Assembly: GCA_964485695.1 (NCBI GenBank)
Contig: CAZAKZ010000177.1
Span: 1 to 10,160 of the forward strand
Source of the DNA: an uncultured Planctomycetota bacterium
GTDB lineage: Bacteria; Planctomycetota; JAFGQW01
Reading direction: 5' to 3'
Length of the DNA: 10,160 nt
Below, piece by piece: positions 327-10,101 of the stretch (positions within the stretch are counted from its first letter, which is position 1; each line of letters starts with the position of its first letter). The translations under genes and the position numbers were made by a program. The notes below the pieces were generated by a model. It made no database searches. It saw nothing but the letters and a program-made list of their open reading frames with translations, and had not been told where the DNA came from.

Positions 327-1433
327 TCACAGCAGCTTGACCACCCGTTCGGCCAGGCCGCCTTCGCCCAGGACCACGTTGAGGTTGGTGGTGGCGGCCA
401 CCTTCTCCAGGACCTCGAGCTCACGCAGACGCATCAGCGTCGGGTTCGCCTCCAGGAGCCTGGCGGTGTTGGCCTGAGAACGCATGGCGGCGGTCTCCTC
501 GCGCCGCGTGATGAGCGACGCTTCGGCGGCCTTCTGCGCCTCGGTCACCTTGTTCATGAGGTCCTTCATCTCACCCGGCAGGATCACGTCCCGGATGCCG
601 AGGGACAGCACCTCGACGCCGAAGTCTGCGGCGCGGCCCTTGAGGATGTCCTCGAGAGCGCTGGCCACCGCATCCTTCCGGCCGAGGATACCGTCCAGGT
701 TCTCGGTGCCGATGACGGCTCGAAACGCGAGCTGAGCCTCACGGTAGAGAGTCTGGCTGTAGTCCTCCACCCGGGTCACGGCCCGGACCGCATCCACCAC
801 CTTGTAGGTCACCACGCCGTTCAAGCGCAGTGCGACCTTGTCGGCGGTCATGATCTCCTGGCCGGACACGTCCAGCACGGATTCGCGAAGGTCCAGGGGC
901 TGGATCGTGACCTTGCCCTCGCCCTTCCAGAAGGCGTGGGTTCCGGGCTCCAGCGTCGCTCGGTATTCCCCGTCGTGGAAGAAGAGGGCGACGTGGCCGG
1001 CCTGGACGGTGTGGGAATCGAGCCACGCGTCGGCATCCTTTGCGTTCAGGATGACGGACAGGCTTCGGTGGTCGAAGCGCACCGCCTGACGGGCGTCGAT
1101 GACTTCCACGTCCACGGTGTGGAACACCGTCCACAGAGCATACAGCCCCGGCCCGAGGATGGTCTCGAACCGTCCGTTGATCCACACCAGGGCTCGCTCG
1201 TTTTCCTTGAGGTCGATGACCCGGGCTTCCCCCTTGAGGGCTCCTGACTTCACGATGACGTCCAGGTCCGGGTGCTTGATCCACGGCGCACGCACCGACA
1301 TGGTGGAGACCCGCACTTTGAAGAGCGGGTCCACAAACCAGTGCCGGCCCGGGCCGAGGATGCCCTTGAACACCCTGTCCTTGAAGGTGAAGCCGCGTTC
1401 GAATTCGCGTACCTTGAACGTTCTTACCACCAT
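327..1433 (-). CDS. SPFH/band-7 family protein (slipin/stomatin-like), 368 aa. The C-terminal half carries the SPFH core followed by a coiled-coil-like Ala/Glu-rich tail. The N-terminal roughly 170 aa is a separate soluble domain with no transmembrane segment.
   Basis: Long ORF with consistent high-GC codon usage. The SPFH region reads 'ADKVALRLNGVVTYKVVDAVRAVTRVEDY...LGIRDVILPGEMKDLMNKVTEAQKAAEA...'. A strong RBS is visible on the minus strand ('GGAGGTG' 5 nt before the ATG at 1433). The stop is TGA at 327-329. Confidence 0.8.
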   Translation of the reverse strand: MVVRTFKVREFERGFTFKDRVFKGILGPGRHWFVDPLFKVRVSTMSVRAPWIKHPDLDVIVKSGALKGEARVIDLKENERALVWINGRFETILGPGLYALWTVFHTVDVEVIDARQAVRFDHRSLSVILNAKDADAWLDSHTVQAGHVALFFHDGEYRATLEPGTHAFWKGEGKVTIQPLDLRESVLDVSGQEIMTADKVALRLNGVVTYKVVDAVRAVTRVEDYSQTLYREAQLAFRAVIGTENLDGILGRKDAVASALEDILKGRAADFGVEVLSLGIRDVILPGEMKDLMNKVTEAQKAAEASLITRREETAAMRSQANTARLLEANPTLMRLRELEVLEKVAATTNLNVVLGEGGLAERVVKLL

Positions 1434-1799
1434 GGTTCACCTCCTTCCGAGGCAAATAGCAACGGGATCATTCCCGTATAAATGTGCGAAAAAGGGCCTT
1501 CGGGAGGCGGACTCCGGGTCCACCACACCTCGGGCGCGGAGCGCTGCTTGAGTCCGGGCCCGGTCCTCGGTTCAATGCCGCGGATTCCCGGTCGCTCGTA
1601 TGCGACCGGGATACCCGCGGAACGTCCCGGAACCGGATCCGGGCGGAATCCGCGCACTGCAGGGCGCCGTCGTGTGCTGCTCTCCGCCGCGGGCCACGTC
1701 TCCTTCGCCGCAGGGGCGAAAGGTTACGACCCGCCGGCCGAGAGCCGGCAACACCGGGCGGCCACCTCCCTCCAGCCGGGTGAGAAACCGTCTCGGTGA

Positions 1800-1873
1800 T
1801 GGTAGCTGACGCAGGAGTCGAACCTGCGACATCGAGTTATCAACTCGTGCTCTACCTCCTGAGCTAGTCAGCG
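1800..1873 (-). tRNA. tRNA-Ile (anticodon GAT) with encoded CCA. It is non-canonical, with a C1.U72 mismatch and an anticodon stem of only 4 bp (or 5 bp with an A.A mismatch).
   Basis: The reverse complement reads 'C-GCTGAC-TA-GCTC-AGGAGGTA-GAGC-A-CGAG-TTGATAA-CTCG-ATGTC-GCAGG-TTCGACT-CCTGC-GTCAGCT-A-CCA'. Conserved U8, the GCTC/GAGC D-stem, the T-loop TTCGA, U33 and A37 are all present, and the anticodon is GAU. Confidence 0.7.
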
Positions 1874-2040
1874 ATAGTGCTGGCCCCGTCGATGCCACTC
1901 ACGGAACACACCGCGCTGATCACGGGGTGAAGCGAGGTGCGCCGCTGGCGAGGCGGTTCACAGTTTATTGTTTGAAAAAACACATCCTCCGGGCGCAAAC
2001 CCGAAGAGGTTCTATTGATCCGTGGTCAAACTCCTGCCTG

Positions 2041-2144
2041 ATTTCATCACGTATGAATGAGTCAAAACCGACTCATTCACCTACCATGAAGCAGTTCATA
2101 CGGTCTGAATGAGCCCGAATCGACTCATTCAATGTCAATGAAAT
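2041..2144. repeat. Nested palindromic array: TTCAT-N6-[TGAATGAGTC-N6-GACTCATTCA]-N6-ATGAA-gcag-TTCAT-N6-[TGAATGAGCC-N5-cGACTCATTCA]-N6-ATGAAAT. It contains two 26-bp inverted repeats with 10-bp arms, spaced 52 bp apart. Each inverted repeat is flanked at 6 bp by inverted TTCAT/ATGAA half-sites. The whole array is a 104-bp imperfect palindrome centred at 2092/2093.
   Basis: Seen directly. IR1 arms are 2054-2063 / 2070-2079 and are perfect. IR2 arms are 2106-2115 / 2122-2131 and match 9/10. The flanking 5-mers are at 2043-2047, 2086-2090, 2095-2099 and 2138-2142. The spacer sequences are not conserved but their lengths are. The array lies in an AT-rich noncoding spacer between the tRNA and mscS. 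Confidence 0.55.
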
Positions 2145-2229
2145 CCGGCGTGAGTTCGGTGTAGACGCACCGTCTCCAGGGACTCGTTGCGAGAGGACTG
2201 CCGGGGAAGTGCCCTTTCTCCTTCAGAGC

Positions 2230-2270
2230 AGAAAAAAAGCCTTCCCGGGCCCGGCCCGGGAAGGCTTTTG
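2230..2270 (-). terminator. Strong rho-independent terminator. It has a perfect 14-bp GC-rich stem (aagccttcccgggc / gcccgggaaggctt) and a 3-nt loop. The plus strand has A7 on one side and T4 on the other, so termination should be strong for minus-strand transcripts and weaker and bidirectional for plus.
   Basis: Seen directly: the stem is 2237-2250 / 2254-2267, the A-run is 2232-2238 and the T-run is 2266-2269. Confidence 0.65.
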
Positions 2271-2288
2271 GATCTTCAGGAAAAAATC

Positions 2289-2396
2289 TCAATCCTTCGA
2301 GGGCGCGCCCCTTTCAATGGATAGACCGTCCAAGGTACCCGTCCGTACGGGCCTGCACGGCTGCATATCTATTGCTTGGTGTCTGAAACCGACCAT
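2289..2396 (-). CDS. Candidate small ORF (35 aa, MVGFRHQAIDMQPCRPVRTGTLDGLSIERGAPSKD). It has its own Shine-Dalgarno site and ends 22 nt before the strong terminator. It may be a real small protein or a chance ORF in the mscS 3' region.
   Basis: ATG at 2396-2394 (minus). It is preceded by 'GGGAGA' with an 8-nt spacer. The stop is at 2291-2289. It is the in-frame tail of a long spurious antisense ORF reported in the track. The peptide has no recognisable motif. Confidence 0.2.
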   Translation of the reverse strand: MVGFRHQAIDMQPCRPVRTGTLDGLSIERGAPSKD

Positions 2397-2482
2397 CAGA
2401 ATTGTCTCCCGAATAACCTTGGAGCGAGATGATAGTTCAATACCTGTAAATGTCAACTGGGAAATCGTAATAAAGAAATCGA

Positions 2483-3523
2483 TCACTCGCGCTTCAGGGT
2501 CACCACCCGCTGCGGGAAGGGGATCTCGATACCCTCGTCGGCCAGGCGTTTGTACAAGGCCGTGTTCAGCTGGTCCACGGCGCGGCCGCGGAGCACCGGC
2601 TGGTCGATCCAGGCCATGACCTGGAAGATGAGGGCGGAATCTCCCAGCTCCCGGAACCGGATCCGCGGCGATGGCTGCCGGCCCAGCAGGTCGCAGCTGT
2701 CGGCCGTCTCCTTGAGCACTGTGCGCACCTGGTCCACGTCGCTCCCGTAGGCCACGCCCACGGTGACGCGGACGCGCCGCTTCTCGTGGGGGCCTCCCGT
2801 TTCGTTGACGATCTTGGTGTTGGCGATGACGTTGTTGGGGATGGTGACCTCGATGTCGTCGCGGGTCAGAATCCGGGTGGACCGGATGCCGATTTCCGTG
2901 ACGCGGCCGCGTTCGCCGGAGCCGAGGAGGATGAAGTCGCCGATCTTGTAGGGCGCGTCGGTGAGGATGAAGATGCCGGCGAAGAGGTTGGCCAGGGTGT
3001 CCTTGGCCGCGAAACCGACGGCGATGCCCACGATACCGGCGGAGGCGAGCCAGGCCGTGATGTTCACGTCCCAGGCGAGAAGGACGATGTAGAGGGCGCC
3101 GCCCCACATGAGGACCCTGTGCAGGATGCCGAACAGCGGCAGGGACCGCGCTTCGATGAACTTGTACCTGTCGGCCTTCCGGGCCAGAGCGTCCAGGACC
3201 AGATCGCCGATGCGTAGCCCCGCCCGGGTCCAAACCATGGCACCGAGGGTCACCCAGACGGAATTGGAGAAACTGAGCAGGCCCGCCTTGAGCGGCGGGT
3301 CGAAGCGGCGAAGTGCCAGGGCGATGCCAAAGAAGACCAGGGTCAGGAAGAGCGGCAGCCGCAGCGATCGGAGGATCTCGTCGTCCATGTCGGTGTGGGT
3401 GCGCCGGGCCAGGCGCAGGAGCACCCGGGTCAACAAGAACTGAAGACAGAACGCGGCGCCGAGGGAGATGAGGAGGATTTCCCACGGAGCAAGGTCCTTC
3501 AGCCAGGCCAGGATTTCATTCAT
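2483..3523 (-). CDS. mscS: Mechanosensitive ion channel, MscS family (small-conductance mechanosensitive channel), about 346 aa.
   Basis: Three N-terminal TM helices are followed by the MscS TM3/beta-domain signature 'IAVGFAAKDTLANLFAGIFILTDAPYKIGDFI...GRVTEIGIRSTRILTRDDIEVTIPNNVIANTKIVNET'. The preferred start is the ATG at 3523 (MNEILAWL...), which has the RBS 'AAGGAAG' 8 nt upstream. The track ORF runs to 3592, but that 23-aa extension has no RBS. Confidence 0.9.
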   Translation of the reverse strand: MNEILAWLKDLAPWEILLISLGAAFCLQFLLTRVLLRLARRTHTDMDDEILRSLRLPLFLTLVFFGIALALRRFDPPLKAGLLSFSNSVWVTLGAMVWTRAGLRIGDLVLDALARKADRYKFIEARSLPLFGILHRVLMWGGALYIVLLAWDVNITAWLASAGIVGIAVGFAAKDTLANLFAGIFILTDAPYKIGDFILLGSGERGRVTEIGIRSTRILTRDDIEVTIPNNVIANTKIVNETGGPHEKRRVRVTVGVAYGSDVDQVRTVLKETADSCDLLGRQPSPRIRFRELGDSALIFQVMAWIDQPVLRGRAVDQLNTALYKRLADEGIEIPFPQRVVTLKRE

Positions 3524-3679: not shown

Positions 3680-6600
3680 ATGAACATGAAAAAAACAGCG
3701 AAAACACCGGTAGGGCAGGATGTTCCGGCCCTGGTCGCCTCTGCGGCCGCCAAGTTCAGGGCAGGGGGCGATTCCCTGTCCGCCTATTCCCTGAAGAGGC
3801 TCTGCACCGCCCTGGAGGCGTGGCGCGATGCACCGGACCCGGTGGACCTGGAGGACCTTGCCACCCTGGCCGAGGAGATCACGGCCCTCCTGGGTCGGGG
3901 CACTGAAAAAGGCACTGAAAAAGAGACCGAAAAGGTCCGACACTGCGCCTGGCGTCTCCTGGATGGGGTGCGCCTGAGACCCACCCTCCGCCGGATCCAC
4001 AAGGCCGGGGCCGTGGACGCCTGGATGGATCGCATTGTCTCCCTCGTCGATGCTTCGGATTACACGGTGCATCGGTTGTTTCACCAGCGCGTCGAGCACT
4101 ACAGGGCCCGGACCCTCTTTCAAACCCTGGGGCCGGGCCGCGGCAAGCGCTGGTCCTGGTTCAACGTGGCCAGCCGGGTGGAGGCCGTGGCCAGAGGGCT
4201 GGTCGCCCTCCTCGGGGAGGATGGGCGCAAACCCGTGGCGATCCTCTCGGAGAATCGGCCCGAGATGATGTTCGTGGATCTGGCCTGCCTCACCTCGGGC
4301 CTGGTGGATGTCATGGTTCCGACCAGCTCCACCGACGCCGATGTGATATTCATCCTCCAGCACTCCCGGGCCGGCACCCTGGTTGTATCGAGGCGGGAGC
4401 ACCTCGAGAAGATCCTGGGCGAACGCGCCACCTTGCCCGATCTGGACCACATCGTCGTCATGGACGGCGCGGCGGACGACGCCCGGAACGTGCTCACGCT
4501 GCAGGATCTGATGGACCGCGGCCGTTCGGTGAAACCGGGCCGGATCAGCCGCATGGGCGGAGCCGTGTGCAGCCACGACCTGGCCACGGTGATGTACACC
4601 TCGGGAACCACCGGCCAGCCCAAGGGCATCATGTTCTCGGATCACAACATCGTGACCAAGCGATTCGCCCGGGCCCTGGCCCTGCCGGAGATCGGTGAGA
4701 AGGACGCTTTCCTCAGCTATCTGCCTCTCTGCCACACCTTCGGTAGATTCCTGGAGATGATGGGATCGATCTTCTGGGGCGCCACCTACACCTTTGTCGA
4801 GCGCCCGGCCATCGAAGTCATGGTCGAGAACTTGCAGCGGGTCCGGCCGACGGTGTTCATCAGCATTCCCAAGAAGTGGATGCAGCTCCACGAGCGCATC
4901 GCCGCCGAGGTCGACGTCGAGACGGCGCCCGAGGCCGACATCCTGGCGGCCGTCCGGGCGGTGACGGGGGGGCGCCTGCGCTGGGGGCTCTCGGCGGCGG
5001 GCTACCTCGACCCCGATATCTTCCGGTTCTTCCAGCGCCAGGGCATCGAGCTCATGAGTGGATTTGGCATGACCGAGGCCACCGGCGGGATCACCATGAC
5101 CCCCCCGGGCCACTATCGAGACGATTCCCTGGGACCGCCGCTCCCGGGCATCGAGGCCCGCCTGAGCGGGGACGGAGAGCTCATGGTCCGCGGACCGTAC
5201 GTCATGACCGGCTACCTCGATCCCGGCGGAAAATCTTCCGATCTGGACGACGGCTGGCTCAGGACGGGCGATCTCATGGAGCAGGATGCCGGTGGGCATT
5301 TTCGTATCGTCGACCGGAAAAAGGAGATCTACAAGAACGTCCGGGGCGAGACCATCGCCCCGCAACGCGTGGAGAACCTGTTCCGGGATTTCGAGGAGGT
5401 GCGCCGGATTTTTCTGGTGGGAGACCACCGCGAGTACAACACGGCCCTCATCGTTCCAAACCTCGACTACGATGGTGTGGACCTCGCCGGCATGTCTTCC
5501 GATGAGCGGCACGAGTATTTCGGTTCCCATGTGGTGTCCGTCAATCGCTTCCTCGTGCCGTACGAACGCATCATCGATTTCGCCCTCATCGACCGTGACT
5601 TCGAGGAATCTCGAGGAGAGCTCACGAAAAAGGGCACCCTGAGGCGAAGCACCATCGTGAGCCATTTCGAAGAAGTCATCGATGGACTCTACCGCCGTAC
5701 GGACCTCCGCATTCGCGGGGAGAACATCGAGATCCGCGTGGCCCGGCGCCTGCTCCAGACCCTCGGTCTCACCGCGAGTGATTTCACCGTGGAGGAGCAC
5801 GCGGTGGTGCTCCGGTCCACGAACACCCGGCTCACGGTCAAGCGGGTCAAGGACTCGGATCACGACATCGTGTTGGGCTCCTGTCGCTACAGGCTGAACC
5901 GGCCTCTCGTCGACCTGGAGCGGTTTCTGTCGGTACCGGCGCTCTGGCTCGGTAACGAGGCCCTGGTCTCGTTCGTGGACCTCGAGCCGTCCTGGCGCCG
6001 GCGCCGGCTGGGCCACCTCGAGGATGCGGTGTGGCGCGGCCGGGCGCGACCGCTTCCGGAGGCCGCCCGGCTGCGTCGGGATCTCGAGGAGAGGGTGTCG
6101 GCCCGGGATCTGGACCTCATGGACGTCCACCTTGCGGCCATGGCCGTCGAGGGCGGCCGGGACCGGGAGGCGAAGACGGGACTCCGGCTCCTGGAGCGCG
6201 CCTTCACCGATGCCAAGGACTACATGGCCGACCTGACCCTGGAGGTGCTGCGACGGACGTCGTTCTCGAAGTCCTCGGCTGTCCGGCGTCGCGGATTCCA
6301 GATCCTGGCGCCCCACGAGCGGTCCGGGATCTTCGCCGAGACCCTGAAGGCATTTCTTCCCCGCATCGATGACCTGCTGGACCGGGAGACCATCGCCCTG
6401 TTCTGCGGCCGTGGCCTGGAAGACGAGAAATTTCAGGCGTTCCTCGAGGCCGTGGAAGGCGCCTCCCCACCGGAGGGGGAAGAGACCGCAGCGATGAAGC
6501 CCCGGTTCGCGGTGGCCCTGCTTCGCTTTCTGGCGGCGTACGGTTCGAAGCACCCGGCCAAGTTCGAGGACGTGCGTTTCCAGATCATCGAGGCTCAGGT

Positions 6601-8437
6601 CAAGGCTGCATCTCCCAAGATCCGGAAGGAAGCGGGTCGGCTCCTGGATACCCTCATCGACGGTTTCCGCGCCTGGCTCGGAGAGAATCAGGTCATTGCC
6701 GTGGATCCGGAGACGGGAGAGGAATACGGGTGGGAGGACGTCATCACCATCGAGGAAGGTGTGGATCCCGAGGAGGAGCAGCGCCTCAAGGACGCCATCC
6801 GGAGCACGACGCTCATCCGCGAGTCGATCTTCCTTTTCTCCGGCAGAGAGGTGCCGCGTCTCCAGGACATCCCGCCCGGCGGCATCTGGGTGAGCCACCT
6901 CGTCACCAAGCACGGAAGATCCATCTACCGCATCACCGTCTACACGCGCCATCAGGAGTCCTACGATTTTGCGGTGCACCTGAACCGCACCCTGGGCCCC
7001 AAGAACGTCTCGGACGAGCTGAACTGGAAGGTCCTGACCTCCGAACCGCACCCCGAGCACAGTCTGGTGGAGAAGCTGGGGGGATTCTGGCCTGAGTATG
7101 GGCTCTGGACCGATGCCTTCGCGTCGGTGAACACAGTGAAGCGCTCGCTGCGTCACCTGGCCCGACAGCACGGGGAGGAAGGACGCCAGCGTCTTTGCCA
7201 GACGTGGCCCTATCTCGCCTGGAACGGCCTGGCGGCCTACTTCGATTTCTGGGCCAGGACGAATCGCACCTTGCACATCGGCAAGCCCACTCCTTCCAAC
7301 GTCATCGTTCCCGTGCACGACTACCAGACCCATACACGTATCATCTCCATTTCCAACCGACTGCCCTTCAAGGGCCTGATGCCCATGATGACGCTGCTGT
7401 GGACGCGGTTCATCGCCCAGGTGGAGGAGAAGTACGAAGTTCTCCGGGGCCTCATAAAGGGGGGCGTCCTGTTCTCGGCCCTCCTCGAGGTGGTGGGGGA
7501 GGCCGACGGACTGCGGCTGCTCCGGGAGGGCCTGGAGGAGGAACCCTGCGAGGAAGAACCGGCCTGGCTGCGGCCCGCCGTGCGAGACTTTCTGGACAAG
7601 GTGTCCCGGGTCGGATTCCGACCCTTTCGCCTGCATTTCGCGATGAAGCGGTATCGCCGGTGGGCGGCCCTCAATCCCGAGGCCGAGCCCCAGGCCCGGG
7701 CGCGCACCCTCAGGGAGCTCTACGAGGTCTACGGTCTGGAACGCCTCGCCTCCCAGCATCCGGAGGCCCGATTGCGTTTCTTCCGGGACACGGTGTTCCA
7801 GAACGCCCGGCAACCGCTGGCTTACGGCATCGACGGTCTCATCGAGCGCATGCGCGATGACCCTTTGCACAGCGACGAACTCATTGCCCGGATCTCCTCC
7901 CTCAGGGCCGGACCCGACATCGAGGCCGACGAGGACTACTTCCTGACCCGTCTCAGCTATCCCCACCTGCAGCCGGAGGACGCCGCTGATTTCATCTCTT
8001 CCATCGGAACCGGTCGGGCCGAGACCGACATCGTGGTCACCCTCGAGGATGAGCGGGGCGAGACCTTCTTCGTCCGCCGGGCCATGAATCCCAAAGAGGT
8101 CGGGCGCCTGCTCAAGCTGTTCCACGCCGCCAAGCTCGACGTGAGCTTCGGACCCGAGGACCACTACCTCGTGGCGGTGGGGGAGCGGGCGAATCTCATC
8201 GGAGGCATTTACTACGAGATCCGGGATGACGGGGAGTCTGCTCACCTGAAGAAAATCGTGGTGTCCGAGCGGTTCCGGAAAGCGGGCGTGAGCGACGGCC
8301 TCATGACGGAGTTCTTCAACCGCATGCGGGCTGCGGCCGTGAAGACCGTCACCACGGGTTTCTTTCGGCCGGAATACTTCTACGGCTATGGTTTTCGCAT
8401 CGAGCGGCGCTACGCGGGGCTGGTGAAGGTGCTTTGA
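3680..8437 (+). CDS. Very large multidomain protein, about 1585 aa. It has an N-terminal carrier-protein-like segment with a 'GGDSL' motif (about aa 1-75). This is followed by an AMP-binding (ANL) long-chain acyl-CoA-synthetase-like domain (about aa 125-675), then about 770 aa of unknown function, then a C-terminal GNAT-fold acyltransferase (about aa 1445-1585).
   Basis: The ANL core motifs were read directly: A3 'YTSGTTGQPKG' (nt 4595-4627), A5 'SGFGMTEATGG', A7 'LRTGDL', A8 'RIVDRKKEIYKNVRGETIAPQRVEN' and A10 'ELTKKGTLRR'. GNAT motif A is present as 'AHLKKIVVSERFRKAGVSDGLMTEF' (R-x-x-G-x-S). The N-terminus reads 'AAAKFRAGGDSLSAYSL...PVDLEDLATLAEEITALL' and looks PCP/ACP-like. The start is uncertain. 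ATG 3680 and ATG 3686 are both possible, with 'GGTGG' just upstream. An upstream GTG at 3581 is possible only if mscS starts at 3523. The track's 3395 start overlaps mscS and is rejected. The stop is TGA at 8435-8437. Confidence 0.85.
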   Translation: MNMKKTAKTPVGQDVPALVASAAAKFRAGGDSLSAYSLKRLCTALEAWRDAPDPVDLEDLATLAEEITALLGRGTEKGTEKETEKVRHCAWRLLDGVRLRPTLRRIHKAGAVDAWMDRIVSLVDASDYTVHRLFHQRVEHYRARTLFQTLGPGRGKRWSWFNVASRVEAVARGLVALLGEDGRKPVAILSENRPEMMFVDLACLTSGLVDVMVPTSSTDADVIFILQHSRAGTLVVSRREHLEKILGERATLPDLDHIVVMDGAADDARNVLTLQDLMDRGRSVKPGRISRMGGAVCSHDLATVMYTSGTTGQPKGIMFSDHNIVTKRFARALALPEIGEKDAFLSYLPLCHTFGRFLEMMGSIFWGATYTFVERPAIEVMVENLQRVRPTVFISIPKKWMQLHERIAAEVDVETAPEADILAAVRAVTGGRLRWGLSAAGYLDPDIFRFFQRQGIELMSGFGMTEATGGITMTPPGHYRDDSLGPPLPGIEARLSGDGELMVRGPYVMTGYLDPGGKSSDLDDGWLRTGDLMEQDAGGHFRIVDRKKEIYKNVRGETIAPQRVENLFRDFEEVRRIFLVGDHREYNTALIVPNLDYDGVDLAGMSSDERHEYFGSHVVSVNRFLVPYERIIDFALIDRDFEESRGELTKKGTLRRSTIVSHFEEVIDGLYRRTDLRIRGENIEIRVARRLLQTLGLTASDFTVEEHAVVLRSTNTRLTVKRVKDSDHDIVLGSCRYRLNRPLVDLERFLSVPALWLGNEALVSFVDLEPSWRRRRLGHLEDAVWRGRARPLPEAARLRRDLEERVSARDLDLMDVHLAAMAVEGGRDREAKTGLRLLERAFTDAKDYMADLTLEVLRRTSFSKSSAVRRRGFQILAPHERSGIFAETLKAFLPRIDDLLDRETIALFCGRGLEDEKFQAFLEAVEGASPPEGEETAAMKPRFAVALLRFLAAYGSKHPAKFEDVRFQIIEAQVKAASPKIRKEAGRLLDTLIDGFRAWLGENQVIAVDPETGEEYGWEDVITIEEGVDPEEEQRLKDAIRSTTLIRESIFLFSGREVPRLQDIPPGGIWVSHLVTKHGRSIYRITVYTRHQESYDFAVHLNRTLGPKNVSDELNWKVLTSEPHPEHSLVEKLGGFWPEYGLWTDAFASVNTVKRSLRHLARQHGEEGRQRLCQTWPYLAWNGLAAYFDFWARTNRTLHIGKPTPSNVIVPVHDYQTHTRIISISNRLPFKGLMPMMTLLWTRFIAQVEEKYEVLRGLIKGGVLFSALLEVVGEADGLRLLREGLEEEPCEEEPAWLRPAVRDFLDKVSRVGFRPFRLHFAMKRYRRWAALNPEAEPQARARTLRELYEVYGLERLASQHPEARLRFFRDTVFQNARQPLAYGIDGLIERMRDDPLHSDELIARISSLRAGPDIEADEDYFLTRLSYPHLQPEDAADFISSIGTGRAETDIVVTLEDERGETFFVRRAMNPKEVGRLLKLFHAAKLDVSFGPEDHYLVAVGERANLIGGIYYEIRDDGESAHLKKIVVSERFRKAGVSDGLMTEFFNRMRAAAVKTVTTGFFRPEYFYGYGFRIERRYAGLVKVL
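3899..3934 (+). repeat. In-frame 12-bp tandem repeat (ggcactgaaaaa x2 plus a degenerate third copy, gagaccgaaaag). It encodes GTEK-GTEK-ETEK in the linker between the carrier-like segment and the ANL domain.
   Basis: Seen directly. 3899-3910 equals 3911-3922 exactly. It is an AT-rich island inside a roughly 70% GC gene. A unit of 12 bp means copy-number change would stay in frame. Confidence 0.5.
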
Positions 8438-8493: not shown

Positions 8494-8645
8494 GACGCGG
8501 ATTGACGCTCTGGACGGCATTCCAGGCCCCGGGTTGGACCGGAAATCGTTGTGGACGCACCCGGTTTCAGCGGATACTATTGGGAATGCCGAACCCTGAT
8601 TGAGGGGATCGTACCAAGGGATCCGGGTGCCCTATATTTGACACT

Positions 8646-8673
8646 ATATTGCCAGGATAATATTGCCAGGATA
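8646..8673 (+). promoter_or_regulatory. Two perfect, directly abutting 14-bp direct repeats, ATATTGCCAGGATA x2. They sit 22 bp upstream of the secreted-protein start codon and are preceded by TTGACA (8638-8643) and a duplicated CTATATT. They are a candidate binding site for a direct-repeat-recognising regulator or a promoter element.
   Basis: Seen directly: 8646-8659 equals 8660-8673. The motif 'ATT(N)CCAGG' also occurs at 8460-8468 and 8519-8526, giving four copies in this intergenic region. No clean sigma70 -10 element sits at the right spacing from the TTGACA. Confidence 0.4.
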
Positions 8674-8694
8674 TTCGACTCTGGAGGTCCTTCG

Positions 8695-10101
8695 ATGAAG
8701 AGGTTGATTGTTCTCGTCTGCGTTGCCGCAGTCCTGGGGGCCAGCCCGGGGATTGATACAGCCCCGGGGCAGAACTACCACGATCCCGCGTATCTCTGCG
8801 GTGGGTACCAGGCCCTGAATCCGAGCACAGCCGTTGCCGGCGGCGTCTGGGTGGTCCGCGGCGACGGCTCGGCCACATCCGTGGCGCTTCCCCACTACAA
8901 CCACTATGGATTCTGCATGGACGCGGACAACAAGCACATCGTCGTCGCCACCCGGGGGAACATCAATACCTCCATCAACATGGGTGCCCAGTACGGAATC
9001 TACCGTTTTGACCCCAATACCTTGACCTACCAGACCCTCCACGGTCCGGATACGATGCATTGCTACTCGCTCTACAACCTTCACGTCAACCAGGACGGGG
9101 ATTACCTCTTCAACACCCAGGTGAGGCGATGGACCGGATCTACCAACGTGTTCGACTACCAGGTGATGAAGCTTGCGTACAACGGCACCCTCTCCACGCT
9201 TCTCACCACGTCTCAGCTCGGACGCAATGCCTACCTGTATGGAGCCATCGGTACGAACATCGATAACGGCAAGAACCTCGTGTGCGACTTGATCAGCGGT
9301 ACGGGGTACCGGTATCCGGTCCTCGAGCTGGCCCCCGACGGCACCGTCAATACCTGGAGCACGGGAGGAACCTACGGCTGGTACGGCTACTACCAGGCCC
9401 CTCAGAACCACCTGACCGGCGATATCGAGGGCCCGTACGCCTCCAACGTGTATCAGATCAAGCCAGGGACGACCGCCCGCACCACTCTGTTCACTCTCCG
9501 GGCCGGGTCCGCGATCAGCAACTACCACTACAACTATCAGTTCGATCTCCAGACGGCGCCAGTGCAGCGCTGGGTTGGAACGCCCTATTCCACCACGGGC
9601 GGCAACAAGCAGTGGATCGGATACGTCGATCGCTCCACCGGCGCACTGACCTCCATCCACGTCACCGGCACGGGCGCCAGGTACGCCTATTACTACGACT
9701 TCGATTTCTACCGCGGAAACCACATCCAGACATTGAAGATCGCCAGCAACAAATGGATGTTGCTCCTGAGCTGTCCGCGAAGCCCCGGATATGCCTACGT
9801 TGTTGGGGCGAGCTTCTCGGGAATCCGGCCGGGCATTTCGGTTGCGGGTGGGCGCCGCATCAACATCAACGTGGACAACCTCCTGGTTGCCACGGTACTG
9901 AACCGGTTACCAGGCGTCTGGAACTCCGGGCCGGGGGTATTGAACGCCAGCGGGGAAGCGCGGGGGATGCTGGACCTGAGCTTTCTGAAGGTCCCGCCGG
10001 GCGGTTTCGGCATCCCGCTGTGGATCGCCATGGTGGTGCTTGACCACAAGGCGCCCGGAGGGATCAAGTACATCCCCGATACCTACGTGATACGCATCTG
10101 A
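8695..10101 (+). CDS. Secreted hypothetical protein, 468 aa, with an N-terminal Sec signal peptide (MKRLIVLVCVAAVLGASPG). The mature protein is rich in Tyr/Asn/Gly/Thr (for example YGWYGYYQAPQNH, NYHYNYQFDL, YAYYYDFDFYRGNH) and is probably a beta-rich surface or extracellular protein.
   Basis: Strong RBS 'GGAGG' 7 nt upstream of the ATG at 8695. The N-terminus has a positively charged n-region, a hydrophobic h-region and a small-residue c-region. There is no lipobox. The upstream in-frame extension (track start 8551) spans the promoter repeats and is rejected. GC is about 56% and GC3 about 70%, both clearly lower than the neighbouring genes. Confidence 0.8.
   Translation: MKRLIVLVCVAAVLGASPGIDTAPGQNYHDPAYLCGGYQALNPSTAVAGGVWVVRGDGSATSVALPHYNHYGFCMDADNKHIVVATRGNINTSINMGAQYGIYRFDPNTLTYQTLHGPDTMHCYSLYNLHVNQDGDYLFNTQVRRWTGSTNVFDYQVMKLAYNGTLSTLLTTSQLGRNAYLYGAIGTNIDNGKNLVCDLISGTGYRYPVLELAPDGTVNTWSTGGTYGWYGYYQAPQNHLTGDIEGPYASNVYQIKPGTTARTTLFTLRAGSAISNYHYNYQFDLQTAPVQRWVGTPYSTTGGNKQWIGYVDRSTGALTSIHVTGTGARYAYYYDFDFYRGNHIQTLKIASNKWMLLLSCPRSPGYAYVVGASFSGIRPGISVAGGRRININVDNLLVATVLNRLPGVWNSGPGVLNASGEARGMLDLSFLKVPPGGFGIPLWIAMVVLDHKAPGGIKYIPDTYVIRI

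What the first reader, a model, noticed from the sequence alone, without database searches (positions are those of the whole stretch)
2041..2144. 104-bp nested palindromic array of two 26-bp operator-like inverted repeats with phased TTCAT/ATGAA half-sites, next to the tRNA gene
The array has exact arm conservation (TGAATGAGTC/GACTCATTCA) together with exact conservation of spacer length (6 bp) but not spacer sequence. This is the signature of protein-recognition sites rather than RNA hairpins or random palindromes. The two sites are 52 bp apart, about 5 helical turns, and each is bracketed at a fixed 6-bp distance by inverted TTCAT...ATGAA pentamers. Together they make a higher-order palindrome. 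No regulator gene is visible in the window, and the overlapping 61-aa ORF (1927..2112) looks spurious. The array could be an operator for a distal dimeric/tetrameric repressor, a recombinase or partition-protein binding array, or a copy of a small dispersed palindromic element. It lies in an AT-rich roughly 600-bp spacer flanking a tRNA gene, a typical landing zone for mobile DNA.
Basis: seen in the sequence. Interest (0 to 1): 0.55.

Follow-up and report, generated by a model that had tools for sequence, protein, structure and literature searches.

The report
Lineage-specific nested palindrome of unknown role
The two-unit palindromic array is real and far from random, but it occurs only in this uncultured lineage and no promoter, regulator or second copy could be tied to it, so it is a modest curiosity. 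The "tRNA gene" beside it is more interesting, because it is part of a conserved, undescribed structured RNA leading a slipin gene.

Summary
The array is present as described at 2043-2142. It has two 48-nt units of the form TTCAT-N6-TGAATGAG(T/C)C-N6-GACTCATTCA-N6-ATGAA, 52 bp apart. The dyad symmetry extends to 2029-2156. One base breaks the "exact" arms.

It is not chance: 0 of 200 shuffles give two such sites, and TTCA-N7-TGAA occurs four times against 0.09 expected. Motif blocks are 29/30 identical between the units, while the 6-nt spacers match at 6/18. The blocks are AT-rich in a 65% GC genome. This pattern favours sequence-specific protein recognition.

Against a classical operator:
- No promoter overlaps the array.
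- No regulator gene lies in the window.
- On the transcribed strand the array sits between two terminator-like hairpins.
- It is absent from the orthologous spacers of relatives.
- No copy was found in GTDB genomes, the metagenome set, plasmids or phages. The source genome itself could not be searched.

A selfish palindromic element and RNA hairpins remain live rivals.

The neighbouring "tRNA-Ile" is a tRNA-shaped domain inside a roughly 520-nt structured RNA upstream of a slipin gene. The RNA is supported by covariation, and the anticodon loop differs in every relative.

The parts
2043..2090 (.). Unit 1: TTCAT-N6-TGAATGAGTC-N6-GACTCATTCA-N6-ATGAA
   Evidence: D1, I6
2095..2142 (.). Unit 2: TTCAT-N6-TGAATGAGCC-N6-GACTCATTCA-N6-ATGAA. 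It has one arm mismatch at 2114, which gives G.U on the - strand and C.A on the + strand.
   Evidence: (D1, I10)
2054..2079 (.). Site 1, a 26-bp palindrome with perfect 10-6-10 geometry
2106..2131 (.). Site 2, a 26-bp palindrome with 9/10 arm complementarity
2086..2099 (.). Central mini-palindrome ATGAA-gcag-TTCAT, the apex of the long hairpin when the array folds as one strand
2029..2156 (.). Full extent of the dyad symmetry, a 128-bp nested palindrome. As RNA it folds to -61.4 kcal/mol on the - strand (z -8.8) and -51.2 on the + strand (z -8.5).
   Evidence: (I1)
1976..2007 (-). Terminator-like hairpin plus T-run, 33 nt downstream of the array on the - strand. It is extra relative to L042.
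2228..2269 (-). Strong GC-rich terminator (16 pairs plus T7) upstream of the array on the - strand. Its sequence is about 80% conserved in L042 and L044.
2429..2456 (-). Only sigma-70-like promoter in the spacer (TTGACA-16-TATCAT, 11/12). It would drive a roughly 190-nt RNA ending at the 2269..2228 terminator.
1438..1958 (-). Conserved structured RNA directly downstream of the array on the - strand. It comprises a 5' hairpin (1948..1895), a tRNA-like cloverleaf (1873..1800) and a roughly 300-nt domain closed by long-range helices (1777..1495), running up to the slipin ribosome-binding site.

Best explanation
The array is a lineage-specific module of eight short, AT-rich, sequence-constrained blocks. 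There are four 10-nt arms (TGAATGAGTC and its complement) and four flanking pentamers (TTCAT/ATGAA). They are held at fixed 6-bp gaps and lie roughly on one face of the helix. The most likely reading is a cluster of recognition sites for a dyad-symmetric, oligomerising DNA-binding protein encoded elsewhere in the genome.

Shown: the geometry, its non-randomness, the block-versus-spacer contrast and the lack of conservation in relatives.

Inferred:
- That a protein reads the blocks.
- That the array influences transcription entering or starting at the structured tRNA-like/slipin RNA, whose first conserved bases (1958) lie about 85 bp from the array's edge. It would act as an upstream control or insulation platform, not as a promoter-overlapping operator.
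- That transcription of the array as a long hairpin on the - strand is a by-product.
For: - Two sites share the same arms: 0/200 shuffles.
- All four arm copies and all four TTCA-N7-TGAA dyads in the 10-kb window lie inside the array.
- Blocks match at 29/30 and spacers at 6/18 (p = 3e-6). Spacers are 0/18 self-complementary.
- Blocks are 20-40% GC in a 65% GC genome, whereas the true terminator stem next to it has 10 GC pairs of 16.
- The tetramers are phased at multiples of about 10.5-11 bp.
- The array lies immediately upstream, on the - strand, of a covariation-supported RNA whose promoter has not been located.
Against: - No sigma-70-like promoter lies within about 285 bp, and sigma-54-like matches are at chance level.
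- A terminator-like hairpin (2007..1986) lies between the array and the downstream RNA.
- No DNA-binding protein is encoded in the window.
- The array is absent from the orthologous spacers of L042, L044 and L045-L048.
- No other copy was found in 185,579 species genomes, the metagenome set, plasmids or phages, so no regulon can be shown.
- The - strand RNA fold is about 10 kcal/mol more stable than the + strand fold.
Confidence: 0.35

Rival explanations
1. A selfish palindromic repeat (REP/BIME-like or MITE-like), or its remnant. The conserved blocks would be binding motifs of a transposase or recombinase encoded elsewhere, and the element landed or grew in a tolerant intergenic spacer.
For: - The dyad is 128 bp, with symmetry running 14 nt beyond the motifs (I1).
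- The spacer from terminator 1 to the conserved block is 275 nt here, 125 nt in L042 and 28 nt in L044. The array plus terminator 2 are therefore about 150 nt of extra DNA.
- The location is intergenic, probably transcribed, and follows a terminator.
- Related loci carry unrelated palindromic elements of similar size in equivalent spacers: the L047 family of about 101 nt between tRNAs, an L045 hairpin with 31-nt arms, and an L041 nested palindrome of 78 nt at the MscS stop codon.
- A master-copy design also explains the block pattern.
Against: - No second copy was found in any collection or in the 10-kb window.
- There is no target-site duplication at 2029/2156 (sequence read).
- The arms do not begin with a GTAG-type 5' motif (REP feature recalled from my own knowledge).
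- The two halves are complementary only in the blocks (spacers 2/18 in the inverted view), unlike typical MITEs or the L041 element (96% complementary).
- No transposase gene lies nearby.
Confidence: 0.25
2. An RNA-level element. On the - strand, read-through or locally initiated transcripts fold the array into two 48-nt hairpins or one long hairpin of about 128 nt. This would act as a processing site (RNase III-type), a stability element or a termination aid between the upstream small RNA and the tRNA-like/slipin RNA.
For: - All flanking genes and both terminators are on the - strand.
- The - strand folds better: -61.4 against -51.2 kcal/mol for 2029-2156, and -19.6/-17.5 against -16.6/-10.5 for the units.
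- The one arm mismatch is a G.U on the - strand.
- A terminator-like hairpin follows 33 nt downstream.
- Long palindromic spacers are common in the related tRNA-array loci.
Against: - The stems are identical in sequence in both units, with no covariation, while the loops are randomised.
- The stems are AT-rich in a GC-rich genome.
- The 6x6 internal loops are fully non-complementary.
- Another imperfect position (2035/2150) gives U.G on the + strand, so G.U placement shows no net strand bias (sequence read).
- No T-run follows the array hairpins themselves.
- The array is not conserved in relatives.
- No Rfam match.
Confidence: 0.25
3. An inert by-product of local inverted or tandem duplication, a palindrome formed in situ with no function.
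For: - L042 carries single-copy sequence resembling the outer flank (GAGTT..ACGGATC), which suggests that local sequence was incorporated.
- The array is confined to this lineage.
Against: A neutral duplicate should decay uniformly. Here the blocks are 29/30 identical while the spacers are saturated.
Confidence: 0.1
4. Upstream activating sequences for a sigma-54 enhancer-binding protein.
For: Sigma-54-like GG-N10-GC matches occur at 2214..2200 and 1897..1883 on the - strand.
Against: - Both matches carry 3 mismatches. Such matches are no more frequent than in shuffles (65 observed against 73 expected).
- One lies upstream of the array, which is the wrong side for an activating sequence.
- The other abuts the tRNA-like element.
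- Neither match lies in an invariant stretch of the alignments with relatives.
Confidence: 0.03

Closest known systems
Multi-dimer palindromic operators. Examples recalled from my own knowledge: the 28-bp IR1 bound by two QacR (TetR-family) dimers, LysR-type T-N11-A boxes such as MetR TGAA-N5-TTCA, and the NikR GTATGA-N16-TCATAC operator.
   Same: Dyad-symmetric half-sites, fixed spacer length with free spacer sequence, several sites phased on one helical face, and AT-rich blocks. TTCA-N7-TGAA contains a T-N11-A motif.
   Different: No promoter overlap, no cognate regulator and no conserved or second site. The apparent NikR-like match (GTATGA-N16-TCATTC at 2051-2078) is off-centre from the palindrome axis by 2 bp and is judged coincidental. 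Literature string searches for the motif found nothing.
REP/BIME elements and ERIC- or Correia-type MITEs. From my own knowledge these are imperfect palindromes of about 35-155 bp in transcribed intergenic regions.
   Same: Size class (26-nt palindromes in a pair, 128-bp overall dyad), extragenic position after a terminator, likely transcription as a hairpin, and absence from orthologous sites of relatives.
   Different: No multicopy evidence, no target-site duplication, no GTAG motif, no transposase gene, and halves complementary only in the motif blocks.
Core sites of tyrosine recombinases (from my own knowledge: dif 11-6-11, loxP 13-8-13)
   Same: 10-6-10 geometry with an asymmetric 6-bp central spacer.
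   Different: The two sites have different spacers (AAAACC and CGAATC), so they could not recombine with each other. They are only 52 bp apart, no recombinase gene is present, and the arms do not resemble dif.
Palindromic inter-tRNA spacer elements in the related slipin/tRNA-array locus L047 (GCA_026692735.1)
   Same: Nested palindromes of about 100 nt in the spacers of the same type of locus, upstream of tRNA or tRNA-like genes.
   Different: The sequence is unrelated (GATTGCG-type heptamer arms). In L047 whole elements, including loops, are 70-92% identical between copies, whereas here only the blocks are shared.

Membership tests
Transcription-factor operator | Dyad-symmetric sites with conserved half-sites and fixed spacing | tested here: met
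Transcription-factor operator | Overlaps or adjoins a promoter it controls | tested here: not met
   The only sigma-70-like site in 1700-2600 is at 2456..2429. Sigma-54-like matches are at chance level. The TTGACA at 2138..2133 has no usable -10 element 15-19 nt downstream (sequence read).
Transcription-factor operator | Cognate regulator gene nearby, or a regulon of similar sites | tested here: not met
   No DNA-binding domain among the five window ORFs scanned. No other site in the window or in the public collections. The source genome could not be searched.
Transcription-factor operator | Sites conserved in orthologous regulatory regions | tested here: not met
   Absent from L042, L044 and L045-L049
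Transcription-factor operator | Specific protein binding | not testable with these tools
   Needs EMSA, pull-down or DAP-seq
REP/BIME or MITE | Many copies per genome | not testable with these tools
   The source population exists only as contigs of about 10 kb or less and is absent from both DNA collections. Neither scan returned the window's own locus.
REP/BIME or MITE | Terminal inverted repeats or an imperfect palindrome in extragenic DNA | tested here: met
   (I1, I6, I10)
REP/BIME or MITE | Target-site duplication (MITE) or a conserved GTAG-type 5' motif with a RAYT gene (REP) | tested here: not met
   The flanks GGTCA|AACTC...GAGTT|CGGT show no exact duplication. The arms begin TGAATGAG. 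No transposase in the window.
REP/BIME or MITE | Empty site in relatives | tested here: inconclusive
   About 150 nt are extra relative to L042. However, the nearest relative is only 74% identical in the adjacent protein, and the boundaries are not clean.
Intrinsic terminator or structured RNA motif | Stable hairpin on the transcribed strand | tested here: met
Intrinsic terminator or structured RNA motif | T-run after the stem (terminator) or covariation/conservation (RNA motif) | tested here: not met
   No T-run after either unit. Stems are identical rather than covarying, no homologues exist, and Rfam has no match.
CRISPR mini-array | Identical repeats including their centres, and cas genes or a leader | tested here: not met
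   The repeat centres differ at 3 of 6 positions (AAAACC against CGAATC). No cas genes.
Tyrosine-recombinase core site | Inverted arms around a 6-8 bp spacer, identical spacers in partner sites, and a recombinase gene | tested here: not met
   The geometry is met, but the spacers differ and no recombinase is present.
Canonical tRNA-Ile gene (the neighbour at 1800-1873) | Cloverleaf with a paired acceptor end, and an anticodon kept in orthologues | tested here: not met
   The cloverleaf scores 48.9 bits, but Infernal flags a non-standard pair at the acceptor end (C1.U72) and one in the anticodon stem. Orthologous elements share the same body but have loops reading GAT, TTT, TGG, ATT, ACG, CAT and CAA.

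The most novel reading that the evidence does not exclude
The array is the lineage-specific control platform, bound by an unknown oligomeric DNA-binding protein, for transcription of a previously undescribed structured RNA of about 520 nt. That RNA carries an embedded tRNA-like domain and leads a slipin (SPFH) gene. In relatives it sits at the end of long tRNA arrays.
Probability: 0.12. Interest if true: 0.6.

Novelty: new member of a known kind. Interest (0 to 1): 0.3.

Why it matters
On its own the array matters little. It is one more unassigned palindromic module in an uncultured bacterium, with no conservation, no partner and no second copy. If it proved to be a regulon site or a new REP/MITE family, it would help annotate this poorly sampled lineage, whose best protein matches are 60-74% identical and carry Planctomycetota or Acidobacteriota labels.

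The larger value lies in what the check uncovered. The adjacent "tRNA" is one domain of a conserved structured RNA with strong covariation support, and that RNA has no Rfam family. It links tRNA arrays to a slipin gene across at least two phylum-level labels. This RNA deserves a separate study.

Tried and rejected
- **Sigma-54 activating sequences.** Matches to TGGCAC-N5-TTGC occur at chance frequency.
- **Promoter inside the array.** The TTGACA at 2138..2133 has no -10 element, and the scan found none.
- **CRISPR mini-array, integron attC, dif/Xer site, invertase hix site.** Geometry or defining features are not met and no enzyme gene is present (sequence reading).
- **Known operators recalled from memory.** ARG box TGAAT-N4-ATTCA, HspR HAIR TTGAGT-N7-ACTCAA, CIRCE and NikR GTATGA-N16-TCATAC all fail on spacing or on the symmetry axis. 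None is a test, only a lead.
- **Motif scan of GTDB species genomes.** 11 single hits in unrelated taxa, about the number expected by chance. All are ordinary lone hairpins without the flanking pentamers.
- **Motif scan of the metagenome collection.** 18 single hairpins, none related, and the source locus itself is absent from the collection.
- **blastn against plasmids and phages.** No match.
- **Literature string search for the motifs.** 0 papers.
- **Population variation.** 7 of the 8 contigs fetched from different samples carry an identical spacer (L007 does not contain it), so SNPs give no information.
- **Closest MscS relative (L040, 92% identical).** Synteny breaks exactly at the stop codon, so there is no comparison.
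- **Homology between the L041 nested palindrome and the array.** The L041 element has two TTCA-N7-TGAA dyads 51 bp apart at the stop codon of an MscS homologue. The local alignment score is not above shuffles (87/500 and 47/500 reach it), so this is an analogy only.
- **G.U strand-bias test.** One position favours each strand, so it is uninformative.
- **Searching protein databases with translations of the array.** Considered and not run, because two of three frames are closed by TGA in every arm and the shared peptide words are too short.

Full report
**1. The observation**

There are two 48-nt units, at 2043-2090 and 2095-2142. Each reads TTCAT-N6-[10-nt arm]-N6-[10-nt arm]-N6-ATGAA, and the units are 52 bp apart.

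One correction is needed. The left arm of the second site is TGAATGAGCC, not TGAATGAGTC. The arms are therefore 39/40 conserved rather than exact.

The dyad symmetry extends further than reported, to 2029-2156. Arms of 51 nt are 73% complementary, and the outer flanks match at 11/14.

The pattern is far from chance:
- Two sites with these arms never arise in 200 shuffles.
- All four arm copies in the 10-kb window lie in the array.
- All four TTCA-N7-TGAA dyads lie in the array, against 0.09 expected.

**2. Anatomy**

The most informative internal feature is the contrast between blocks and spacers.
- The 30 block positions are 29/30 identical between units.
- The 18 spacer positions are 6/18 identical, which is at background (Fisher p = 3e-6).
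- Spacers are 0/18 self-complementary within each unit.
- In the inverted comparison of the two units, spacers match at 2/18.

A recent duplication would have kept the spacers. An old neutral one would have lost the blocks. The block sequences themselves are therefore constrained, either by selection in place or by the design of a master copy.

The blocks are also AT-rich. The arms are 40% GC and the pentamers 20%, in a genome of about 65% GC. The bona fide terminator stem next to the array has 10 GC pairs out of 16. This argues against selection for RNA stem stability and for sequence-specific recognition.

The TTCA/TGAA tetramers start at 2043, 2054, 2076, 2087, 2095, 2106, 2128 and 2139. 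They fall roughly on one helical face.

**3. Context**

Every gene around the array is on the - strand. In transcription order the features are:
1. An MscS channel gene (3523..2483).
2. The only sigma-70-like promoter in the spacer (2456..2429, 11/12 match).
3. About 190 nt ending in a strong terminator (2269..2228).
4. The array.
5. A second terminator-like hairpin (2007..1986 plus a T-run).
6. The "tRNA-Ile" (1873..1800).
7. A GC-rich stretch.
8. A Band_7/slipin gene (1433..327).

No promoter overlaps the array. Sigma-54-like matches occur at chance frequency. None of the five window ORFs scanned carries a DNA-binding domain.

As RNA, the - strand folds better than the + strand. The 128-nt palindrome gives -61.4 against -51.2 kcal/mol. 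The array is therefore probably transcribed, and an RNA role cannot be excluded.

**4. Related sequences**

The window comes from an uncultured population known only from contigs of about 10 kb or less. Seven of the eight contigs fetched carry an identical spacer.

Searches for other copies:
- An exact-motif scan of one genome per GTDB species gave 11 lone hairpins in unrelated taxa, roughly the chance expectation. None had the flanking pentamers.
- The metagenome collection gave 18 similar chance hairpins and did not even contain the source locus.
- Plasmids and phages gave nothing.

The motif is therefore not a widespread element. Its copy number in the source genome is untestable with these tools.

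Relatives:
- The closest MscS relative (92% identical) diverges exactly at the stop codon.
- The slipin gene has relatives at 67-74% identity that keep a long gene-free region upstream.
- Using the conserved terminator and a conserved block as landmarks, the spacer holding the array is 275 nt here, 125 nt in L042 and 28 nt in L044. The array plus the second terminator are about 150 nt of lineage-specific extra DNA.
- None of the relatives has the motif.

Palindromes elsewhere in these loci:
- L047 has a family of palindromic spacers of about 101 nt between tRNAs.
- L045 has a hairpin with 31-nt arms between two tRNAs.
- L041 has a 78-nt nested palindrome with two TTCA-N7-TGAA dyads 51 bp apart. 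It starts at the stop codon of an MscS homologue.
- The L041 element is not significantly similar to the array. These cases are analogies, not homologues. They do show that large palindromes are common in such spacers.

**5. Explanation**

I favour a cluster of recognition sites for a dyad-symmetric DNA-binding protein encoded elsewhere (confidence 0.35). It possibly acts on transcription into or at the structured RNA, whose conserved part begins about 85 bp from the array's edge.

What is shown: the geometry, the non-randomness, the sequence constraint and the AT-richness. What is inferred: the protein and the target.

Rivals:
- A selfish REP/BIME/MITE-like palindrome whose blocks are transposase motifs (0.25).
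- RNA hairpins used for processing, stability or termination on the - strand (0.25).
- An inert duplication product (0.1).
- Sigma-54 activating sequences (0.03, effectively rejected).

The decisive test is the genome-wide copy number, followed by strand-specific transcript ends. Both need the source genome or samples.

**6. Comparison with known systems**

The array has operator-like geometry. However, it fails three of the four testable defining features of an operator: promoter proximity, a cognate regulator or regulon, and conservation. It should not be filed as an operator.

It resembles REP/MITE elements in size and position. It lacks a target-site duplication and a GTAG motif, and there is no evidence for multiple copies.

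The 10-6-10 geometry resembles recombinase core sites, but the spacers differ and there is no recombinase gene.

It is best described as a new, unassigned member of the broad class of protein-recognised palindromic arrays.

**7. The side finding**

The "tRNA-Ile(GAT)" scores 48.9 bits but carries two non-standard pairs, one at the acceptor end (C1.U72) and one in the anticodon stem.

At the same position upstream of slipin, seven loci carry the same tRNA body (six are aligned; L048 is read). The shared body consists of:
- D arm TAGCTCA..GG.AGAGCA.
- Anticodon stem CCGAG/CTCGG.
- T arm GC(A/G)GGTTC.A.TCC(T/C)GC.

The anticodon loop differs in each locus:

| Locus | Anticodon read |
|---|---|
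| window | GAT |
| L042 | TTT |
| L044 | TGG |
| L045 | ATT |
| L046 | ACG |
| L047 | CAT |
| L048 | CAA |

The flanks are conserved too. An alignment of six loci gives a consensus structure of 116 pairs.
- 92.7% of cells are paired, against 84.6 ± 0.7 in shuffles and about 40% when the partners are slid.
- 37 pairs show compensatory double changes, against 16.5 ± 2.7 in shuffles (0/500) and 8-12 when slid.

In window coordinates the RNA spans about 1958..1438 on the - strand:
- 5' hairpin, 1948..1895.
- Cloverleaf, 1873..1800.
- A domain of about 300 nt closed by long-range helices, 1777..1495.
- A possible anti-Shine-Dalgarno pairing between 1958..1952 and 1444..1438. This is weak, with only one covarying pair.

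Rfam 15 has nothing there except tRNA. Three literature look-ups found no description.

In L045-L049 this RNA and the slipin gene sit at the end of, or inside, long tRNA arrays. The labels on these loci are Planctomycetota and Vicinamibacteria.

**8. Verdict**

The feature is real and non-random. Its function is unresolved, with protein recognition of DNA the leading reading. It is not conserved and has no demonstrable partners. Interest in the array itself is 0.3. The neighbouring structured RNA is the more valuable lead.

Noticed in passing
window 1438-1958 (- strand); L042 1108-1625, L044 8525-9060, L045 2490-3000, L046 2000-2500, L047 1925-2500, L048 1950-2500: A conserved structured RNA of about 520 nt lies upstream of a slipin (Band_7) gene. 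It comprises a 5' hairpin, a tRNA-shaped domain whose 7-nt anticodon loop differs in every relative (GAT, TTT, TGG, ATT, ACG, CAT, CAA) while the body is kept, and a domain of about 300 nt closed by long-range helices. Covariation is strong: 37 of 116 pairs show double changes, and 0/500 shuffles reach this. There is no Rfam family and no paper was found. The annotated "tRNA-Ile" is therefore probably not an ordinary tRNA gene.
   Followed up: yes
L045 1992-2681; L046 1010-2198; L047 73-2161 and 3740-4890; L048/L049 45-2196: In relatives, the slipin gene and its tRNA-like leader sit at the end of, or inside, long tRNA arrays of 4 to 23 tRNA genes. An RNaseH_like (PF04308) ORF is often embedded, and HNH or Fic genes lie nearby. 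The window lineage, L042 and L044 have lost or never had the array and keep only the terminal tRNA-like element.
   Followed up: partly
window 2228-2456 (- strand): A near-consensus sigma-70 promoter (TTGACA-16-TATCAT) lies 27 nt after the MscS stop. It is followed by about 190 nt and a 16-bp GC-rich bidirectional terminator. This is a candidate small RNA, or possibly a 35-aa ORF reading MVGFRHQAIDMQ.... The terminator sequence is about 80% conserved in L042 and L044 although the body is not alignable. No Rfam match.
   Followed up: partly
L047 1-62, 312-410, 1207-1307, 1365-1465, 1541-1641, 1720-1820: A family of palindromic elements of about 100 nt fills the spacers between consecutive tRNA genes. 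The arms are 26-33 nt, built of GATTGCG-type heptamers, with about 28 nt between them. Copies are 70-92% identical.
   Followed up: partly
L041 11063-11140: A 78-nt nested palindrome begins at the stop codon of an MscS homologue (65% identical to the window's) in a 70-bp convergent intergenic gap. It holds two TTCA-N7-TGAA dyads 51 bp apart. This dyad occurs nowhere else in 94.5 kb of window plus relatives except in the array under study. Overall similarity to the array is not significant.
   Followed up: yes
window 2483 / L040 1444: In the closest MscS relative (92% identical) the DNA diverges completely from the first base after the stop codon. The MscS gene and the small-RNA/array/slipin block are therefore joined at a synteny breakpoint.
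   Followed up: partly
window 3680-8437 (+ strand): A 1585-aa protein has an AMP-binding (acyl/aryl-CoA ligase-type) N-terminal part covering residues 135-674 and about 900 residues of C-terminal sequence without any Pfam match.
   Followed up: no
window 8551-10101 (+ strand): A 516-aa ORF has a hydrophobic, signal-peptide-like stretch near residues 50-65 (by eye from the translation). The gene callers place the start about 48 codons in, giving a 468-aa product. The sequence is rich in Tyr, Gly and Asn and has no Pfam match.
   Followed up: no
window 2163-2183 (- strand) and L042 1035-1055: A short segment, GAGTCC..GG.GACGGTGCGT, lies between terminator 1 and the array and is shared with L042. 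It resembles the 3' half of the conserved 5' hairpin of the leader RNA (…GCG.CGGTG.GT.CCGTG). This suggests that the variable spacer contains a decayed partial duplicate of the leader's 5' end.
   Followed up: no
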